From assembly GCA_963745835.1 (NCBI GenBank), contig CAVUZH010000003.1, positions 544,001 through 608,000 of the forward strand: DNA of 64,000 nt, given 5' to 3'. Below, in pieces: positions 46,921-54,423 of the stretch. This stretch comes from an uncultured delta proteobacterium. Its GTDB lineage: Bacteria > Desulfobacterota > Binatia > UBA9968. The notes below the pieces were generated by a model. The model did not search any database and was not told the DNA's origin. It saw nothing but the letters and a program-made list of their open reading frames with translations. The translations under genes and the position numbers were made by a program. The first letter of the stretch is position 1, and every line of letters starts with the position of its first letter.

Positions 46921-48570
46921 TTAACTCCTGGCTTCTTTGTTCGCACGGTCCGTGGCCGGTTGTCGTGAAGAAACTCCGGCTGAAATGATTTCTTTTGCCT
47001 CTTGACGAGCCTGCTTCAGGGCGAGCCGTAGATTTTTCTGTTGTTCGAACCAAAACTTTGAAAAGGCTGCGCTCATCCGCTTATCAGTTATCTTCATCAG
47101 CAGGTAAGCCACGAGAAGACCGTCGGTTATCCAGGCTACCCGGATGATGTTACCTGAAAAGTTTTGTCCGACCGCATAGAGCGTGGCGAACGGTGAAGCT
47201 ACCAGATTGACTAGGAAGAGAGCTAGCCCCTTGGTGATTGACCATATGCCGATCCCCGAAGGGTCATCAAGCGCCCCGGAGGCGGCGATCAACGCGGCCA
47301 CGCAGGACAACAAGTAAATATAATAAGAGAGCCGGCCGACGCTGATGGTGCCGCGGACACAATTCAACAAGGAGCTTTGGGTGTTTGCGTGGGCAGATTT
47401 CAATACCATTTCTGCTGCGAGTGCCCGGGTCATCGCGGTCGCGTCTTCTTCCTGGTCACCGGTTGGCGTGATAACAATCCTCGCATCGGGTGGCAGATTT
47501 CCCGGACTGTAGTCCTCCGTTCCGTGCGCAATCCGTTCCATCACGCTAAGATGGATTGCCGGGGTCATTCCATTATCATGACAGAGCTGCCCGATATCGC
47601 GCGGTTTCCAGCGGTAGAAAACGCCTAAGCCGGCGCGGGGATCATAAAGCTTGTCGTCAACGTTGGCGTGATCTCGATAGTATTCGTACTCGTCAGGGAT
47701 AAATCGCAGCCCGGCATTTTGAGCCTTGGTCATCAACCAGTGCATTGCCGTCAGCGACAAGCCCTGCTTCGGATAACCTCCGCCAACATTGGAATGGGCG
47801 CCGGCAAACCACACCTGCTCGATCTTTTGCGATTTGCCCGGGCTGGATGCCCGTTGATCCCAGAGCAGCGGATGGAACGAATGCCGGTCATCGTCAACAG
47901 CCAACGCATGGTAGGCGTGGTCGACCTGCTCGCTTAACCTTTGATTGGGAAACTTGAATCGATAGATCACCGCATTGATGAAATCGCTAATGTGGAAAGG
48001 CATTCCGACCGCATCGACGGTGTCCCATACGCCGATGAAGTGAATCTTGGTTTGCTGCGGGTGGCAGTATTTGATTCTAAATTCGTCGGTCGCGGCAGCG
48101 CTAGCGTCGCCGCGCAGCAGTCGCATCAAAGCTGTTCGGTAACAACTGCGGTAAGCCTTGTAGGCTCTATTCACGCAACCGTCGAAAGCTTCCGCGGTAG
48201 GTTGCTTCTGTGCATCGATAATACCGCATCGGACGATGAGCCCCACGAGGCTACGGACCGTGAAAGCGCCGCGGCTAAAGCCGAACAAGAATATTTTATC
48301 GCCAGGATCATAGATACGGCATAGCTCCTTATACAGTTGTTTGACATTTCGGCTTAAACCCCACCCGGTTATTCCGGCAAAAATTTTGAGCGGTCTGAAA
48401 TCTTCCGTGCCGACGCCATCGTCGTAGATCGGCACCTGCGGATCCAGCTTCGGGTTAAGTCGGTGGCCATTGAGATCAATAGACTCAAAGATCTTGAATA
48501 CATTCGTGCCACGGTCCTTAACGGCAGAGTTTCCAGTTCCGTCCGAGCAGATCACAATGTTCTTCGCCAT
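46921..48570 (-). CDS. DUF2235 (Tle1-like alpha/beta hydrolase) with C-terminal membrane segments
   Basis: ICSDGTGN, YDDGVGT, GFSRGA, GVWDTV, WFAGAHSNVGGG. Confidence 0.92.
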   Translation of the reverse strand: MAKNIVICSDGTGNSAVKDRGTNVFKIFESIDLNGHRLNPKLDPQVPIYDDGVGTEDFRPLKIFAGITGWGLSRNVKQLYKELCRIYDPGDKIFLFGFSRGAFTVRSLVGLIVRCGIIDAQKQPTAEAFDGCVNRAYKAYRSCYRTALMRLLRGDASAAATDEFRIKYCHPQQTKIHFIGVWDTVDAVGMPFHISDFINAVIYRFKFPNQRLSEQVDHAYHALAVDDDRHSFHPLLWDQRASSPGKSQKIEQVWFAGAHSNVGGGYPKQGLSLTAMHWLMTKAQNAGLRFIPDEYEYYRDHANVDDKLYDPRAGLGVFYRWKPRDIGQLCHDNGMTPAIHLSVMERIAHGTEDYSPGNLPPDARIVITPTGDQEEDATAMTRALAAEMVLKSAHANTQSSLLNCVRGTISVGRLSYYIYLLSCVAALIAASGALDDPSGIGIWSITKGLALFLVNLVASPFATLYAVGQNFSGNIIRVAWITDGLLVAYLLMKITDKRMSAAFSKFWFEQQKNLRLALKQARQEAKEIISAGVSSRQPATDRANKEARS

Positions 48571-48674
48571 CGGTTCTCCGTGGATAAAACCCGTGGTAGG
48601 CAAAATCTCGTGCGATGTACCAGCAGCTTCGGCCTCAAGAGTAATCGACTAGAGATAAGCGGGTCAAGAATATT

Positions 48675-49602: not shown

Positions 49603-49639
49603 AAAACAAAAGCCGATTACCTGGAGAGGTAATCGGCTT
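49603..49639 (-). terminator. Intrinsic terminator of the ABC permease gene
   Basis: 13-bp stem AAGCCGATTACCT/AGGTAATCGGCTT followed by T-rich tract on minus strand. Confidence 0.85.
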
Positions 49640-49695: not shown

Positions 49696-50547
49696 CTATG
49701 CTGCCGCCCCGACTTTCGGGCGCCACTTTTCGAAGCGAGCCTCCAACTTGGTTAGCAGTTCCATGGAGATCATGCCGGTGATGGCGAAGATCAGCACGCC
49801 GACAAAGACTTTGTCGGTCTGGAAAGTAGCTCCGGCCACGGTGATCATAAAGCCGATGCCGGCGGTAGCGGCATAAAGCTCTCCGACCATGACACCGATC
49901 AAGGCCCTGCCGACTCCGAGCCTCAAGCCGGTAAGAATAAATGGCAAGGTTGACGGTAACACGACACTTCTGAATATCTGCCATTCCGAAGCGCCGAAGC
50001 TCTTTGCGGCGGTAAGCAGGTTATATGGAGTGGTCTTTACCCCGTCACGCGCATTGATCAGGATCGGAAAAACCGCGCCGAGGAAAATGATCCCAACTTT
50101 TGAAAGTATGCCAATTCCAAGCCAGATAATGACTAACGGCAACAGGGCTACCCGCGGCGTGGCGTTCATGGCATTAATAAAAGGATCGAATATGTACGCC
50201 ATCTTTTTGTACCAACCGCAGGCAATCCCGAAGGGAACGCCTACCAACACGGAGAGCACGTATCCCCAGGCGAACTCGATGCCGCTTACTCGGAGATCGT
50301 TCCAGATCTCTCCCGACGCGAACAGTTGCACGGCGGCTTTCCAGATGAGCGAGGGCGCGCTCATGAACATGGGATTGATTAGCTGCAACGTGTTACCAAT
50401 CAATTCCCAGACAGTCAGGAATGTTACTACGGCGGCAGTCCCGAGAATTTTCTTCTCGTTGTTGAGGTAGAACTTATAAGCTCCGGAAGCCTCTGCGACG
50501 CGGACATCTAATAAAACCTCTTCTGCCGCGGGATTATGATCAGCCAT
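49696..50547 (-). CDS. NitT/TauT (SsuC/TauC-like) ABC permease
   Basis: PRVALLPL..IWLGIG, AAKSFGAS, LPS.LPFILTGLRL, GE......GIG; RBS AGGAGG. Confidence 0.93.
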   Translation of the reverse strand: MADHNPAAEEVLLDVRVAEASGAYKFYLNNEKKILGTAAVVTFLTVWELIGNTLQLINPMFMSAPSLIWKAAVQLFASGEIWNDLRVSGIEFAWGYVLSVLVGVPFGIACGWYKKMAYIFDPFINAMNATPRVALLPLVIIWLGIGILSKVGIIFLGAVFPILINARDGVKTTPYNLLTAAKSFGASEWQIFRSVVLPSTLPFILTGLRLGVGRALIGVMVGELYAATAGIGFMITVAGATFQTDKVFVGVLIFAITGMISMELLTKLEARFEKWRPKVGAAA

Positions 50548-50571
50548 TGTTTTTTCCTCCTATCACGAAAT

Positions 50572-50609
50572 AAAAAAGCCAGCCTCTCCCCATCGGGTTA
50601 GAACTGGCC
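50572..50609 (-). terminator. Leader terminator 2 (proximal to the permease)
   Basis: GCCAGTTCT..CCCGATGGG.AGAGGCTGGC-TTTTTTATTT. Confidence 0.85.
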
Positions 50610-50650
50610 TGCCTTAACCGAGACACCCCATGAGGGCTCCCTTCAACTAG
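50597..50650 (-). ncRNA. Candidate DUF1646 / Na+-I riboswitch aptamer
   Basis: GTTGAAGG...GGGTG..CGGTTAA...AGGCC..TTCTAAC; 3' part overlaps the 5' arm of terminator 2; family match from recalled consensus, not a search. Confidence 0.6.
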
Positions 50651-50666
50651 CCTGTTTAAATCCAAT

Positions 50667-50706
50667 AAAAAAGCCGACGGGGGATGTGACCATCCCAAGT
50701 CGGCTT
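50667..50706 (-). terminator. Leader terminator 1
   Basis: AAGCCGAC.GGGATG-gtca-CATCCC..GTCGGCTT-TTTTATT. Confidence 0.88.
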
Positions 50707-50758
50707 ACGGCCCGACTGACTGCAATCCGTGTGCTGGAGCAGCCCCTCAGGTCATCAG
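50707..50758 (-). ncRNA. Structured cis-regulatory element upstream of terminator 1 (nhaA-I-like tail or novel)
   Basis: Extended hairpin CCTGA/TCGGG, GGCTGC/GCAGTC, TCC/GGA; AGTCGG can alternatively pair with CCGACT in the terminator arm. Confidence 0.55.
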
Positions 50759-50771
50759 CAAAACTAGACAC

Positions 50772-50800
50772 ACGCTAATAACGAACCAGGTAAATGTCAA
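50772..50800 (-). promoter_or_regulatory. Sigma-70 promoter for the permease leader
   Basis: TTGACA-17 nt-TAGCGT; the -35 overlaps the DUF2294 stop codon. Confidence 0.7.
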
Positions 50801-51174
50801 GCGGTTATTTTGCGCGGTAGATCCCTGCCCAGATTGGCGTCCAATATAAAGATGAACACACGCTCCCCCGACGTCGTATTGATGTCCGTAAGGATGTCGA
50901 GAACTTTGCCGCCGCTAACATCACTGATCATGGTTGAAAGTTGGGCCCGCGCGCTTTCAATCAAGGTGGAACGCATTTTTTTAATCAGTTCCACACCGTC
51001 GGCGCGTTTGGCTAGCTGTTGCTCTGCCGGTGTCAGCACGCCTTTGAGCCGGACCAGTATCAAATCTTCAATGATATGACTGCGAGCCTCTTTCGGACCA
51101 CGGCCCATGCAGTCGATTTCGAAACCGACCATGGCTTCACTGATCGCTGCCTCTATTTCGCCCTTCGTCTTCAT
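50797..51174 (-). CDS. DUF2294 / MpsC-family protein
   Basis: KTKGEIEAAIS...MGRGP...DLILVRLKGVLTPAEQQL...D.NT.SGERVFIF.L. Confidence 0.9.
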   Translation of the reverse strand: MKTKGEIEAAISEAMVGFEIDCMGRGPKEARSHIIEDLILVRLKGVLTPAEQQLAKRADGVELIKKMRSTLIESARAQLSTMISDVSGGKVLDILTDINTTSGERVFIFILDANLGRDLPRKITA

Positions 51175-51310
51175 CGGAGATGCGACCTCGTTCAAAAGCA
51201 TTGGCCTATAGCGCGCAACAATGTTGCGATGCGGAGCTAAACTTAGCCGTATACAGGTTGGCGAGTCAATCGGTCCGTGGACCTAGTGCCTAATTGGACA
51301 CACCCCCCTC

Positions 51311-51412: not shown

Positions 51413-52588
51413 TTACAGTTTTCCTAGCCTCGCAAATCGTTCCGCTGCGGCAGCAAGGGTTTCATCTTTCTTGCAGATGGCAAAACGCGCCAGGTATCTA
51501 CCCAGTTCTTTATCGGACTCTTGGTAGAACGCGCTGGGTGGTATACAGGCAACGCCGATCTCGGTTGTTAGCCAGCGTGCAAACTGAACGTCATCCGTCA
51601 CGTGTCGCGGCGCGACGGGGCGCCAATCGGCCATAATGAAATAGCTGCCCTGCGGCTTGAGAACTCTGAAACCGGCTTGTTGGAACACCTCGATCATTCG
51701 ATTACGCTTGGACTGATAGCTCACCTGCAGCTCTTCGAAATACTTCACTGGCAAACTGAGCGCCAGTGTGGCCGCGGCTTGTAAGGGCGAGGCAACAGCA
51801 AAGGTGATGAACTGGTGCGCGCGATTAACAGCATTCACCAGATCTGCCGGACCGATCGCCCAACCGATCTTCCAGCCGGTAACGCTAAAGGTTTTGCCAA
51901 CACTGCTGATGGTCACTGTGCGTTCTGCCATGCCCGGCAAGGTCGCCAGTCGTATATGCGCCATTCCGTCGTAGAGGATATGCTCATAGACCTCGTCGGT
52001 AATGGCGACGACCTGATGCTTGCGGCATAGATCCGCAATTAGGCTAAGTTCCTGGCGGGTATAAACCTTGCCGGTCGGATTGTGCGGCGTATTGACGATA
52101 ATCGCGCGGGTGCGCGCATTGAAAGCTCGTGTAAGCTCGTCCGGATCGAAGCTCCACTGATCACCGCGCAGAGGCACATAGCGCGGCCTAACTCCCGCCA
52201 TCGCCATGTTGGGCACATAGCTGTCATAGACGGGCTCAAAGACAATCACTTCGTCGCCCGGATCGGTCAAGCCGAGGATCGCAGCGAAAACAGCTTCGGT
52301 GGCGCCGGAGGTGATTAGAACCTCGGTCTCCCAATCGATCTCTTGGTTGTAGAAACGTTCGGCATGCTGCGCCACCGCTTCGCGCAATACCTGCATACCG
52401 ATACCGGGGGCATACTGATTCAATTCGCTGTTAATCGCTTCCACCGCCGCGGCAAGAACTTCCGGCGGACCATCGAAGTCCGGCGCGCCCTGGCCGAGAT
52501 TGACTGCCTTGCATTGTCGCGCTAAATCATTGATCTCGACGAATACCGTGGTGCCAAATCCGGCGACACGCCGGGCCATAGCTGACAT
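51413..52588 (-). CDS. Class I/II PLP aminotransferase (YbdL/methionine-kynurenine type)
   Basis: NLGQG.PDF, NQYAPG.G, NTPHNPTGKV, DEVYEH, SSVGKTFSVTGWKIGW. Confidence 0.93.
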   Translation of the reverse strand: MSAMARRVAGFGTTVFVEINDLARQCKAVNLGQGAPDFDGPPEVLAAAVEAINSELNQYAPGIGMQVLREAVAQHAERFYNQEIDWETEVLITSGATEAVFAAILGLTDPGDEVIVFEPVYDSYVPNMAMAGVRPRYVPLRGDQWSFDPDELTRAFNARTRAIIVNTPHNPTGKVYTRQELSLIADLCRKHQVVAITDEVYEHILYDGMAHIRLATLPGMAERTVTISSVGKTFSVTGWKIGWAIGPADLVNAVNRAHQFITFAVASPLQAAATLALSLPVKYFEELQVSYQSKRNRMIEVFQQAGFRVLKPQGSYFIMADWRPVAPRHVTDDVQFARWLTTEIGVACIPPSAFYQESDKELGRYLARFAICKKDETLAAAAERFARLGKL

Positions 52589-52923
52589 CGTAGATGAACC
52601 CCCCTTGTTAGAATCTTCGGAATAATCTCTAACCAGATAGATTTCAATGGCGTGGAGATCGAGTTTCGTTGCCGTGCAACCTAAGTGCATGCGGATACAA
52701 CGTAGATTGCACACAGGTCTAATCCTGTTAAAACGAAACACACTTCATACGCGAATGTCTTTCCCGCTGGAAACTCTGGAAGAGACGAAGAGGCTGGGAA
52801 GAGACAAGAGGCTGGCAGCAACTGTTTAAATCAAACTCCGGCGATTAAAACTACTGGACATTTTAACCGCGTTTAAATATCAGAAGTTAAGAGAACGAAT
52901 GGCAAACAAAAGGAGTTCATACC

Positions 52924-54423
52924 ATGGCTCAGTCCGATGCTGCTTTTAATATAATTGAAACGACTATTGACGATGTTCACGCGGCTTACGAGTCAGGTCG
53001 GCTGACTTGCCGGAAGTTAGTACAAATGTATCTCGATCGCATCGAGGCTTTCGATAAAAAAGGCCCGCAGCTCAATGCCATCATCACGATCAATCCCGAG
53101 GCGCTGGGGGAAGCCGATCGTCTCGACGCTGCTTATAAAGCTTCGGGTCTCGTGGGACCGCTGCACGGCATTCCGGTCATCTTCAAGGATCAGGGCGATG
53201 TCAAAGGCATGCCGACCACGTTGGGATCGGTGTTGTTCAAGGATTATTATCCGGACCGGGACTCGTTTGTTGCCGACAAGCTAAGAAAGGCCGGCGCGGT
53301 GATCCTGGCCAAAGCAACGTTGGGCGAATTGGGCGGCGGCGACACGCACGGATCGCTATTTGGGTCGACCCGCAATCCGTATGATACCGAACGCACGGTC
53401 GGCGGTTCCTCCGGTGGTTCAGCGGCGGCGGTCTCGGCAAATTATTCGACCCTCGGCGTTGGACAGGAAGGGCTGGCATCGATCCGCAGGCCATCGACGT
53501 GGAACTGCATTAGTGGCATGCGTCCGACGGCAGGCTTGGTTAGTCGTGGCGGCGTTTATGGTTGTTGGCCGGAAATCAATGGATCGCTGGGTCCCATGGC
53601 CCGCACAGTGGGCGATTTGGCCGCTCTGTTGGACATCATGGTCGGGTATGATCCGGAGGACCCGATCACCGCGCGCGGGATCGGTCATATTCCCGAAACC
53701 TATAAAAGTTTTCTCGACAAGAATGGTCTTAAAGGAGCGCGGATCGGAATCTTGCGCCAATCGATCGGCCTCGGCAGCGAACCGGATTCAGAAGACTTCA
53801 ATAAGATCGGCGAAGTGTTCGACAAAGCAGTGGCCGATCTCAAGGCCAGCGGCGCCGAAATTGTAGATCCGATCACGATTCCCAAGCTCAATGAATTGAT
53901 GGCCAAGCGATCTTCAGGTCCCGGTGACTCGGACAAATCTTTTCAGAACTATTATGGACGAAGCGCCAGACCGCCGTTTAAATCCCGTGAAGAGGTCATC
54001 GCGGCGCCGGAATTCGCCAAGATCGTGCGCCGTTCGCAAGATCGTTTCAAGAAGAATCCCGATCCACTGAGCCATTACGAGCATCTCAAGGCGCAAGATG
54101 AGTTGATGACGAATTACCTGAAGGTTATGGCCGATCATCGCCTGGATGCGATCGTTCATAAGGCGATAGAGCATCAGCCTACTCTTATCAAAGACGGCGT
54201 GAACCCGCCGTTCGTCGATCAGAAAGGCGCGCCGCATCTGAATACATTCCTGGTTTTCGTTCCGACGATCGTTGTTCCGGCGGGATTCACAAGGGACAAT
54301 CTTCCCGCCGGCGTTTGCTTTACCGGACGACCTTATGATGACGGAAACCTGATCAAATTTGCTTACGCATACGAACAGGCAACGCATCATCGCCGCCCGC
54401 CGGCAAGCACGACGGGGTTGTGA
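52924..54423 (+). CDS. Amidase-signature family protein
   Basis: GPLHGIPVIFKD, GGSSGGSAAAV, SIRRPS; RBS AGGAG. Confidence 0.92.
   Translation: MAQSDAAFNIIETTIDDVHAAYESGRLTCRKLVQMYLDRIEAFDKKGPQLNAIITINPEALGEADRLDAAYKASGLVGPLHGIPVIFKDQGDVKGMPTTLGSVLFKDYYPDRDSFVADKLRKAGAVILAKATLGELGGGDTHGSLFGSTRNPYDTERTVGGSSGGSAAAVSANYSTLGVGQEGLASIRRPSTWNCISGMRPTAGLVSRGGVYGCWPEINGSLGPMARTVGDLAALLDIMVGYDPEDPITARGIGHIPETYKSFLDKNGLKGARIGILRQSIGLGSEPDSEDFNKIGEVFDKAVADLKASGAEIVDPITIPKLNELMAKRSSGPGDSDKSFQNYYGRSARPPFKSREEVIAAPEFAKIVRRSQDRFKKNPDPLSHYEHLKAQDELMTNYLKVMADHRLDAIVHKAIEHQPTLIKDGVNPPFVDQKGAPHLNTFLVFVPTIVVPAGFTRDNLPAGVCFTGRPYDDGNLIKFAYAYEQATHHRRPPASTTGL

What the first reader, a model, noticed from the sequence alone, without database searches (positions are those of the whole stretch)
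50548..51174. Two-stage RNA attenuator (candidate tandem riboswitch gate) between DUF2294/MpsC and the only ABC permease
Seen: a TTGACA-17-TAGCGT promoter opens a ~220-nt leader with two intrinsic terminators in series. Element 1 is a long hairpin whose AGTCGG (50712-50717) can instead pair with CCGACT (50698-50703) in terminator 1, giving an anti-antiterminator/antiterminator/terminator layout that predicts OFF when folded. Element 2 overlaps the 5' arm of terminator 2, predicting ON when folded. Both are preceded by CTAGTT and end near GGCC. Knowledge: element 2 resembles my recollection of the DUF1646/Na+-I riboswitch; the GTCGGGCCG tail of element 1 recalls nhaA-I (Li+/Na+-II); MpsC is named from the Na+-linked MpsAB bicarbonate system. 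Inference: a two-input gate controls a NitT/TauT permease, and DUF2294 may be an RNA-binding regulator of element 1. This is my best candidate for an undescribed system.
Basis: partly seen in the sequence, partly recalled or inferred. Interest (0 to 1): 0.85.

Follow-up and report, generated by a model that had tools for sequence, protein, structure and literature searches.

The report
Conserved RNA leader partnered with MpsC
The stretch between the small MpsC/DUF2294 gene and a lone transporter gene holds two related, structured RNA switches that each end in a transcription stop signal, and the same kind of RNA sits beside MpsC genes in four bacterial phyla, which points to an undescribed gene-control system.

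Summary
On the minus strand at 50548-50800 there is a promoter-like pair of hexamers, then two structured modules: E1 (50663-50770) and E2 (50570-50659). Each ends in an intrinsic terminator, just before the permease ribosome-binding site.

Neither module matches any of the 4227 Rfam families, so kinship to DUF1646 or nhaA-I is not supported.

Both modules are conserved. Covariance models find E1 in 39 of 90 genomes of the window's family and E2 in 33 of 90. E1-like elements also occur in Nitrospirota, Planctomycetota and Chloroflexota.

The hairpin helices covary. E1 and E2 look like paralogues with one design: a long irregular hairpin whose basal helix uses the 5' arm of the terminator. Both therefore probably stop transcription by default and are switched on by one signal. 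This is not a two-input gate of opposite polarity.

The element tracks the MpsC gene:
- An MpsC gene ends within 150 nt upstream of 37 of 50 E1 copies.
- Genome-level co-occurrence is near perfect in three orders.
- Planctomycete genomes hold up to 13 copies next to 2-9 mpsC genes.

Best reading (about 0.5): MpsC is an RNA-binding antitermination factor for this leader family. Main rival (about 0.28): a ligand-sensing riboswitch functionally linked to MpsC. No binding was tested.

The parts
50797..51174 (-). mpsC (DUF2294) gene, 125 aa, read from the ATG at 51174 (MKTKGE...). This is the candidate trans-acting regulator.
   Evidence: Pfam PF10057 at 119.6 bits against a cut-off of 23. The start is set by alignment with 40 homologues; the longest ORF would begin at 51201.
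50772..50800 (-). Promoter-like TTGACA-17-TAGCGT. The -35 hexamer overlaps the mpsC stop codon.
   Evidence: Sequence. CTTGAC followed about 17 nt later by TAnnnT recurs at the same place in 13 of the 15 related loci shown, and promoter-like hexamers precede the elements in other phyla. It is not listed by the scanner because the -10 matches only 3 of 6.
50663..50770 (-). Element E1: 5' tail (about 50765-50757), P1 (50756-50747 with 50715-50707), P2 hairpin (50744-50718), then terminator 1.
   Evidence: Model R1 scores 94.3 bits, E = 1.2e-17. Helix covariation.
50667..50706 (-). Intrinsic terminator 1: AAGCCGAC...GTCGGCTT plus T6.
   Evidence: Folds. The GCCGAC/GTCGGC stem is near-invariant across 50 copies.
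50570..50659 (-). Element E2, a divergent paralogue of E1, including terminator 2.
   Evidence: Model R2 scores 81.9 bits, E = 1.2e-16. The nascent fold pairs its 5' tail with the terminator 5' arm.
50572..50610 (-). Intrinsic terminator 2: AGGCCAGT...GGCTGGCT plus T6.
   Evidence: Folds. GGCCAGC/GCTGGC is conserved across 37 E2 copies.
49696..50561 (-). AGGAGG ribosome-binding site (50561-50556) and the regulated orphan ABC permease of NitT/TauT type, 283 aa.
   Evidence: Pfam BPD_transp_1 at 102.5 bits. The best NCBIfam hits are TauC, SaoP, SsuC and NtrB, all below their curated cut-offs. The same permease follows E1-E2 in 19 of the 48 related loci held, and in the window.

Best explanation
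**What it is.** The leader is a member of an undescribed family of transcription-attenuation leaders that goes with the MpsC/DUF2294 protein.

**Shown.**
- A promoter at the 3' end of mpsC starts a transcript.
- Its first ~100 nt (E1) and next ~90 nt (E2) each form a long, irregular hairpin (helices P1a, P1b and P2, with purine-rich internal loops).
- Each hairpin is followed by a strong intrinsic terminator.
- E1 and E2 are paralogous variants of one design.

**Inferred mechanism.**
- In each module the conserved 5' tail can pair with the 5' arm of the terminator. This helix, P0, is the base of the hairpin.
- P0 forms first on the nascent RNA but is weaker than the terminator, so the default is termination at both sites.
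- A factor that locks the full hairpin, P0 included, lets polymerase read through into the permease gene.

**Inferred factor.** The factor is MpsC itself, possibly loaded with a still unknown signal. It would act like LicT/BglG on RAT or HutP on the hut leader.

Two like modules in series would sharpen one response rather than compute two inputs.
For: **1. Structure.**
- On 50 E1 copies, 89% of cells pair against 18-43% when the partner is slid. 11 of 19 pairs change on both sides. 0 of 500 shuffles reach the observed score.
- On 58 cross-phylum copies, 80.5% pair against 18-44% slid, and 12 of 18 pairs change on both sides. For example, pair 17-126 is CG 31 / UA 17 / UG 8, and pair 29-114 is CG 35 / UA 20.

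**2. P0.**
- Folds of the RNA up to, but not including, the terminator 3' arm give the hairpin with P0 as minimum-energy structure in the window and in 4 of 4 other representatives from four phyla.
- In 15 of 15 E2 copies tried (of 37 held), the outer helix joins the 5' tail to the terminator 5' arm.
- Full-length folds give the terminators.

**3. One family.**
- R2 scores E1 sites at 22-32 bits.
- The cross-phylum E1 model R3 scores an E2 at 28 bits.

**4. Link to MpsC.**
- 37 of 50 Binatia E1 copies have an mpsC stop within 150 nt upstream on the same strand.
- Window's order, 123 genomes: 36 have both E1 and MpsC, 3 only E1, 6 only MpsC, 78 neither.
- Planctomycete order, 99 genomes: all 21 genomes with the element have MpsC, and 0 of 61 genomes without MpsC have the element.
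- In 12 of 16 further mpsC loci of that order, a divergent element lies 80-115 nt downstream of mpsC.
- Nitrospirota order, 37 genomes: 15 of 16 genomes with the element have MpsC.
- Two mpsC-then-element pairs occur in one Caldilineaceae genome.
- In planctomycetes mpsC is often divergently transcribed from the element. Adjacency is therefore not explained by co-transcription.

**5. Regulon-like copy number.** There are 6 elements with 2 mpsC genes in G124, and 13 elements with 4 mpsC genes in G127.

**6. Repeated attenuators.** Attenuators recur between successive genes of one cluster (L054, L058, L059). My recollection is that the PyrR-controlled pyr operon is built the same way.
Against: - PDB sequence and profile searches gave nothing. 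The fold of MpsC is therefore unknown, and nothing shows it to be an RNA-binding protein.
- P0 has no compensatory changes, because both strands are nearly invariant. In Binatia it carries a U-C mismatch (pair 11-132: GC 39, other 19).
Both are weaker than the terminator fold (-46.4).
- MpsC-family paralogues are also targets downstream of elements. That equally fits MpsC being an effector under riboswitch control.
- 11 of 38 elements outside Binatia lie more than 1.5 kb from an mpsC gene within the held locus, and 7 have none in the held locus.
- Related genomes are not independent samples.
Confidence: 0.5

Rival explanations
1. The elements are true riboswitches that bind a small ligand or ion directly; candidates from the gene sets are Na+, bicarbonate/CO2 or a pH-linked signal. 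MpsC is then a co-regulated or functionally linked protein, not the sensor.
For: - The RNA is conserved, covaries, and its basal helix overlaps the terminator, the usual riboswitch layout.
- Genes downstream in other phyla include NuoL/MrpA-like antiporter-type subunits, an Mrp-like operon, SbtA-type Na+/bicarbonate transporters and HtpX.
- MpsC paralogues themselves lie downstream of elements.
Against: - The hairpin is a simple rod without a multi-helix junction or a detected pseudoknot (one search found no further covarying helix).
- Downstream genes are very mixed: KaiC-like ATPase, DUF3309, an ice-binding-like PEP-CTERM protein, small membrane peptides, TctC-like binding proteins and an orphan permease.
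- A riboswitch needs no dedicated protein. Yet the element was found in only 4 genomes without an MpsC match, out of 259 searched in three orders.
- The canonical mpsC usually sits upstream of the element's own promoter, outside its control.
Confidence: 0.28
2. One reading: a two-input gate. E1 is an OFF switch related to nhaA-I, using the AGTCGG/CCGACT antiterminator. E2 is an ON switch related to the DUF1646 Na+ riboswitch.
For: - AGTCGG and CCGACT are complementary at the stated coordinates.
- That helix is pairable in 88% of cells across 50 copies, with 5 G-C changes at pair 70-89.
- Constrained to it, the window RNA folds to -42.2 kcal/mol against -46.4 for the minimum.
Against: - No Rfam match at any threshold tried.
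- E1 and E2 share one architecture and cross-match each other's models.
- The antiterminator needs P1 to open, and P1 is far more stable and is the best-covarying helix.
- The model gives no role to the 5' tail, which is conserved in four phyla.
Confidence: 0.04
3. There is no switch. Terminator 1 simply ends the mpsC transcript, terminator 2 is a leaky insulator, or E1 and E2 are stand-alone small RNAs made from the promoter at the end of mpsC. A variant of this rival: MpsC is a DNA-binding factor acting at that promoter.
For: - A promoter followed about 100 nt later by a strong terminator is also the anatomy of a small-RNA gene.
- The terminators are the thermodynamic ground state.
Against: - The elements sit 15-25 nt before a ribosome-binding site in most loci.
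- They recur between consecutive genes of one cluster.
- Plain terminators do not keep their stem sequence and an upstream hairpin across four phyla.
- RNA-library contigs from three studies run from E2 across terminator 2 into the permease gene. This is weak evidence: they are contigs only, and DNA carry-over is possible.
- Compensatory base changes point to RNA structure, not to a DNA operator.
Confidence: 0.1

Closest known systems
Protein-dependent antitermination leaders: LicT/BglG with RAT, HutP with the hut leader. Mechanisms are recalled from textbook knowledge, not from a call.
   Same: - The regulator gene lies next to the leader.
- An imperfect hairpin overlaps the 5' arm of an intrinsic terminator and is weaker than it, so the default is termination and a bound factor gives read-through.
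   Different: - The RNA sequence and structure are unrelated to RAT or to UAG-repeat sites.
- MpsC/DUF2294 has no recognised CAT, PRD, HutP or ANTAR domain; PF10057 is its only Pfam hit.
- RNA binding by MpsC is not shown.
PyrR-controlled pyr operon attenuators (recalled).
   Same: - The regulator gene comes first.
- Similar attenuators are repeated before successive genes.
- A conserved hairpin lies upstream of each terminator.
   Different: - PyrR binding favours termination by stabilising an anti-antiterminator. Here the fold analysis favours default termination and factor-dependent read-through.
- There is no sequence likeness.
Na+ (DUF1646 motif) and Li+ (nhaA-I motif) riboswitches.
   Same: - Terminator-coupled leaders placed before cation-transport genes.
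- Some targets here are antiporter-like (Mrp/NuoL-type) and Na+/bicarbonate transporters.
   Different: - No covariance-model match even at E <= 10.
- A strict partnership with a protein gene.
- A far more mixed gene set.
Tandem riboswitches of one class, such as tandem glycine or TPP arrangements (recalled).
   Same: Two like sensor-plus-terminator units in series in one leader.
   Different: E1 and E2 are distinct, separately conserved subtypes kept in a fixed order. Each also occurs alone.

Membership tests
Rfam DUF1646 (Na+) riboswitch | Match to the family covariance model | tested here: not met
   cmscan of the whole window at gathering score gave 0 matches. Positions 50450-50900 at E <= 10 gave only mir-8303 and PK-BYV chance hits.
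Rfam nhaA-I (Li+) riboswitch | Match to the family covariance model | tested here: not met
   Same searches. In addition, 16 loci from other phyla gave 0 matches at gathering score, and L112 gave only chance hits at E <= 10.
Intrinsic (Rho-independent) terminator | G+C-rich stem-loop directly followed by a U-tract | tested here: met
   Both terminators are in the minimum-energy fold and are followed by T6. They are not listed by the simple scanner because their stems carry internal loops.
Riboswitch (generic) | Conserved, covarying aptamer whose helix competes with an expression platform | tested here: met
   Covariation. P0 overlaps the terminator 5' arm in nascent-RNA folds.
Riboswitch (generic) | Direct binding of a small ligand without a protein | not testable with these tools
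The tight co-occurrence with mpsC argues against independence from a protein but does not exclude it.
Protein-dependent attenuation system | Dedicated regulator gene linked to the leader across lineages | tested here: met
   Adjacency and co-occurrence in four phyla.
Protein-dependent attenuation system | The protein binds the leader RNA | not testable with these tools
   Structure prediction is off. Complex prediction takes no RNA. There is no solved relative.
Pfam PF10057 MpsC/DUF2294 | Score above the curated cut-off over the whole domain | tested here: met
   119.6 bits against 23, profile positions 1-110 of 111.
NitT/TauT-type ABC permease | BPD_transp_1 domain with best likeness to TauC, SsuC or NtrB | tested here: inconclusive
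   BPD_transp_1 scores 102.5 bits. TauC scores 153.9, SaoP 144.7, SsuC 121.4 and NtrB 84.4 bits; all are below their equivalog cut-offs. No ATPase or matching binding-protein gene lies beside it.

The most novel reading that the evidence does not exclude
DUF2294/MpsC is a new family of RNA-binding antitermination proteins. Together with a dedicated leader RNA (subtypes E1, E2 and a third planctomycete form), it forms an ancient regulatory module found in at least four phyla. The module switches on membrane, cation and inorganic-carbon transport genes and stress genes. That would give a function to a domain of unknown function that has been carried along under the name of the staphylococcal Mps system.
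Probability: 0.45. Interest if true: 0.85.

Novelty: new member of a known kind. Interest (0 to 1): 0.78.

Why it matters
If this holds, it adds a new, widespread class of terminator-coupled leader RNA and gives a first functional handle on DUF2294/MpsC.

The only experimental statement I found on MpsC is that its deletion has no phenotype in S. aureus (PMC6689103, passages read).

The finding would define regulons in largely uncultured groups (Binatia, Nitrospirota, Planctomycetota, Caldilineaceae). These regulons include NuoL/Mrp-like and SbtA-like transporters, which are relevant to cation, pH and inorganic-carbon homeostasis.

It is directly testable with one protein and a ~100-nt RNA.

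Tried and rejected

- Rfam at gathering score and at E <= 10 on the window and on 16 other loci gave nothing relevant.
- The own genome holds no second copy of E1 or E2.
- A PDB search with MpsC as a sequence and as a 41-sequence profile gave no meaningful hit: best E = 0.42, STIM1.
- ESM Atlas returned only other DUF2294 clusters and holds no model.
- Structure prediction of MpsC was not possible, so no fold search was made.

**Literature searches**
- 'DUF2294' and 'PF10057' each found 1 unrelated fungal paper (listings only).
- 'MpsC'+'MpsB' led to the S. aureus papers. I read passages of PMC6689103.
- 'riboswitch' / 'bicarbonate transporter' / 'SbtA' / 'terminator' gave a listing only, with nothing on this motif.
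- 'DUF3309'+'riboswitch' and 'Binatia'+'riboswitch' gave 0 papers each.
- On these searches I found no description of this RNA in print. Subscription journals and supplementary files were not seen.

**Structure ideas dropped**
- An all-against-all column scan for extra helices or pseudoknots gave only clade-linked correlations.
- A P2-like helix in the middle of E2 could not be fixed consistently across genera.
- I dropped a claim of clean cross-subtype covariation for P0, because each subtype keeps one mismatch.
- I looked for a leader peptide. Only ATG-ACC-TGA occurs in the window, and it is not conserved.

**RNA libraries**
- The runs are kept as contigs only.
- Parts of the leader without cover (for example 50726-50779 in three of four runs) say nothing.
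- Contig ends near 50688-50713 are not interpretable.

**Pattern scan**
- Two pattern-scan loci, L102 and L105, lie in coding-like sequence and got no model support. I treat them as chance.

**Not used or closed**
- Complex prediction was not used, because it takes no RNA.

**Unpublished genome G012**
- One of its sequences (L009) was among the 14 used to build model R1.
- G012 is counted once in the tallies.
- L128 was scored.
It is absent from alignments A6, A7, A9 and A10.
Full report
**1. What is at the coordinates**

Everything here is read on the minus strand.
- The mpsC/DUF2294 gene (Pfam PF10057, 119.6 bits) ends at 50797.
- Its TGA stop lies inside TTGACA (50800-50795). TAGCGT follows 17 nt later (50777-50772).
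- The next ~220 nt hold two stem-loops, each followed by T6: terminator 1 at 50706-50667 and terminator 2 at 50610-50572.
- After them come AGGAGG (50561-50556) and the ATG (50547) of a 283-aa BPD_transp_1 permease. Its best NCBIfam likeness is to TauC, SaoP, SsuC and NtrB, all below their cut-offs.
- RNAfold places both terminators in the minimum-energy fold.
- The simple scanner lists neither the promoter nor these terminators. The whole-leader z-score is only -1.82. So the sequence alone would not prove much.

**2. It is not a known RNA family**

- cmscan against all 4227 Rfam families gives no match at gathering score in the window. Around the leader at E <= 10 it gives only two chance hits.
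- The same holds for related elements from other phyla.
- The recalled likeness to DUF1646 and nhaA-I is therefore not supported.

**3. It is conserved and modular**

- blastn of the leader finds it in 13 of 41 related genomes, the window's own among them, all in the window's family.
- The alignments split it into two modules: E1 (50663-50770) and E2 (50570-50659).
- Covariance models R1 and R2 find E1 in 39 of 90 genomes of the family (52 copies) and E2 in 33 of 90 (37 copies).
- None is found in the 33 genomes of the two sister families.
- The own genome has only one copy of each.
- E2 normally starts 2-16 nt after E1, but each module also occurs alone.
- A pattern scan of one genome per GTDB species returned 50 loci.
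  - Those with the best R1 scores bear titles such as 'Candidatus Binatia bacterium'.
  - Sixteen further loci come from Nitrospirota, Planctomycetota and a Caldilineaceae (Chloroflexota) genome and are supported by the models.
  - Two loci look like chance.

**4. Structure**

- On 50 Binatia copies the hairpin (P1a, P1b, a 2x2 purine loop, P2) pairs in 89% of cells, against 18-43% when the partner is slid. 11 of 19 pairs change on both sides, and no shuffle out of 500 reaches the score.
- On 58 copies from four phyla (model R3) the figures are 80.5% against 18-44%, with 12 of 18 pairs changed on both sides.
- The 5' tail is conserved in all four phyla: GUCGGANGAY in Nitrospirota and Planctomycetota, GUYUGNNGAU in Binatia.
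- The tail is complementary to the terminator 5' arm CCGAC. I call this helix P0.
- P0 shows no compensatory change, because both strands are almost invariant. In Binatia it carries a U-C mismatch.
- When the RNA is folded only up to the terminator 3' arm, the hairpin with P0 is the minimum-energy fold in the window and in 4 of 4 other representatives.
- In 15 of 15 E2 copies tried, the outermost helix likewise joins the 5' tail to the terminator 5' arm.
- With the 3' arm present, the terminator wins.

**5. E1 and E2 are relatives**

- R2 scores E1 sites at 22-32 bits.
- The cross-phylum E1 model scores an E2 at 28 bits.
- A third subtype turns up in planctomycetes.
- All share the order: tail, hairpin with purine loops, AU(A/G)G linker, terminator.
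- I therefore read the window leader as two like units in series with the same polarity (default stop, factor-dependent read-through). It is not an OFF unit followed by an ON unit.

**6. The partner gene**

This is the main new result.
- In Binatia, 37 of 50 E1 copies have an mpsC stop within 150 nt upstream on the same strand.
- Most of the rest are internal copies further down the same cluster or lie at contig ends.
- Genome-level co-occurrence of the element and MpsC in three orders:

| Order | Genomes | Both | Element only | MpsC only | Neither |
|---|---|---|---|---|---|
| Window's order | 123 | 36 | 3 | 6 | 78 |
| Planctomycete order | 99 | 21 | 0 | 17 | 61 |
| Nitrospirota order | 37 | 15 | 1 | 4 | 17 |

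- Window's order: of the 3 element-only genomes, one hit is at a contig end and one is weak. Of the 6 MpsC-only genomes, two have E2.
- Planctomycete order: when 16 of the 17 MpsC-only loci were searched without filters, 12 showed a divergent element 80-115 nt downstream of mpsC.
- One Caldilineaceae genome has two mpsC-then-element pairs. One precedes an Mrp-like operon and the other precedes htpX.
- In planctomycetes the canonical mpsC is often divergent from the element, and a second, more distant MpsC paralogue lies downstream of it.
- Copy numbers reach 6 elements with 2 mpsC genes (G124) and 13 with 4 (G127).
- Kin are not independent samples. But the same pairing in four phyla and in two gene orientations is hard to explain without a functional tie.

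**7. What is controlled**

In Binatia:
- the orphan permease (19 of the 48 related loci held, plus the window)
- a 34-36-aa membrane peptide
- a 52-54-aa membrane peptide
- a ~190-aa membrane protein without a Pfam family
- TctC-like binding proteins
- MpsC paralogues
- further downstream: TMEM14, TerC, Usp and HtpX genes

Elsewhere:
- NuoL/MrpA-like proteins of 805-900 aa
- SbtA-type transporters
- an Mrp-like operon
- HtpX
- KaiC-like ATPases
- DUF3309
- an ice-binding-like PEP-CTERM protein

The set leans towards membrane, cation and inorganic-carbon functions and general stress, but it is mixed.

**8. Mechanism and odds**

- Shown: the promoter-like site, two conserved covarying hairpins, two terminators, and the MpsC linkage.
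- Inferred: P0 competes with the terminator; a factor locks the hairpin; the factor is MpsC.
The remainder stays open.
- Against my reading: nothing is known of the MpsC fold. MpsC paralogues are also targets, which fits an effector role as well.
- The name 'MpsC' carries no weight for Na+. In S. aureus, mpsC deletion had no phenotype and the gene is not syntenic with mpsAB outside staphylococci (PMC6689103, passages).

**9. Expression**

- Six RNA libraries from soil hold parts of the stretch.
- In three of them, from three studies, a contig runs from E2 across terminator 2 into the permease gene: X15 at 50528-50691, X17 at 50373-50713 and X18 at 49967-50688.
- These are contigs, partly from relatives at 90-99% identity, and DNA carry-over cannot be excluded. 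They are no more than a weak hint that read-through RNA exists.

**10. Verdict**

- The finding is real and more interesting than a single odd leader, but for a different reason than proposed.
- It is a new family of terminator-coupled leader RNA tied to DUF2294/MpsC, not a relative of the Na+ or Li+ riboswitches and probably not a two-input gate.
- Claims that include the unpublished genome G012 are the tallies (one genome each) and model R1 (one of 14 training sequences). None depends on it.

Noticed in passing
window 46921-48603 (-): A 560-aa ORF with a T6SS Tle1-like phospholipase catalytic domain (PF09994, 249 bits) and a hydrophobic C-terminal half. The same gene follows the permease locus in other genomes of the genus (cluster 17).
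   Followed up: no
window 49610-49639: A perfect 13-bp palindromic hairpin just downstream of the permease gene. It scores as a terminator on both strands.
   Followed up: no
L064:5149-5300 and L066:1860-2000: In two genomes of one genus, E1-E2 is followed by only the first six codons of the permease gene and then a stop, with a Crp-like regulator gene next. It looks like a leader left behind after the permease gene was deleted.
   Followed up: no
L049:5143-5253, L054:6267-6377, L082:5277-5381 and others: A conserved 34-36-aa single-helix peptide, M(E/G)KWEPIFWI.GSG...KKKK, is the commonest gene directly after E2 apart from the permease. It has no family assignment.
   Followed up: partly
L146 (G124:C91:108391-114065): Six E1-like elements lie within 6 kb, each before a short gene. 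Several have a TTGCAT-17-TATAAT-type promoter.
   Followed up: partly
L068-L073, L079-L088 (upstream of mpsC): In many Binatia genomes mpsC is the last gene of a conserved run: short-chain dehydrogenase, aldehyde dehydrogenase, UbiD-like decarboxylase, ArsC/Spx-like protein. The link to MpsC is unexplained.
   Followed up: no
window 52924-54423 (+) and 51413-52741 (-): An amidase gene and a class I/II aminotransferase gene flank mpsC in the window's genus only.
   Followed up: no
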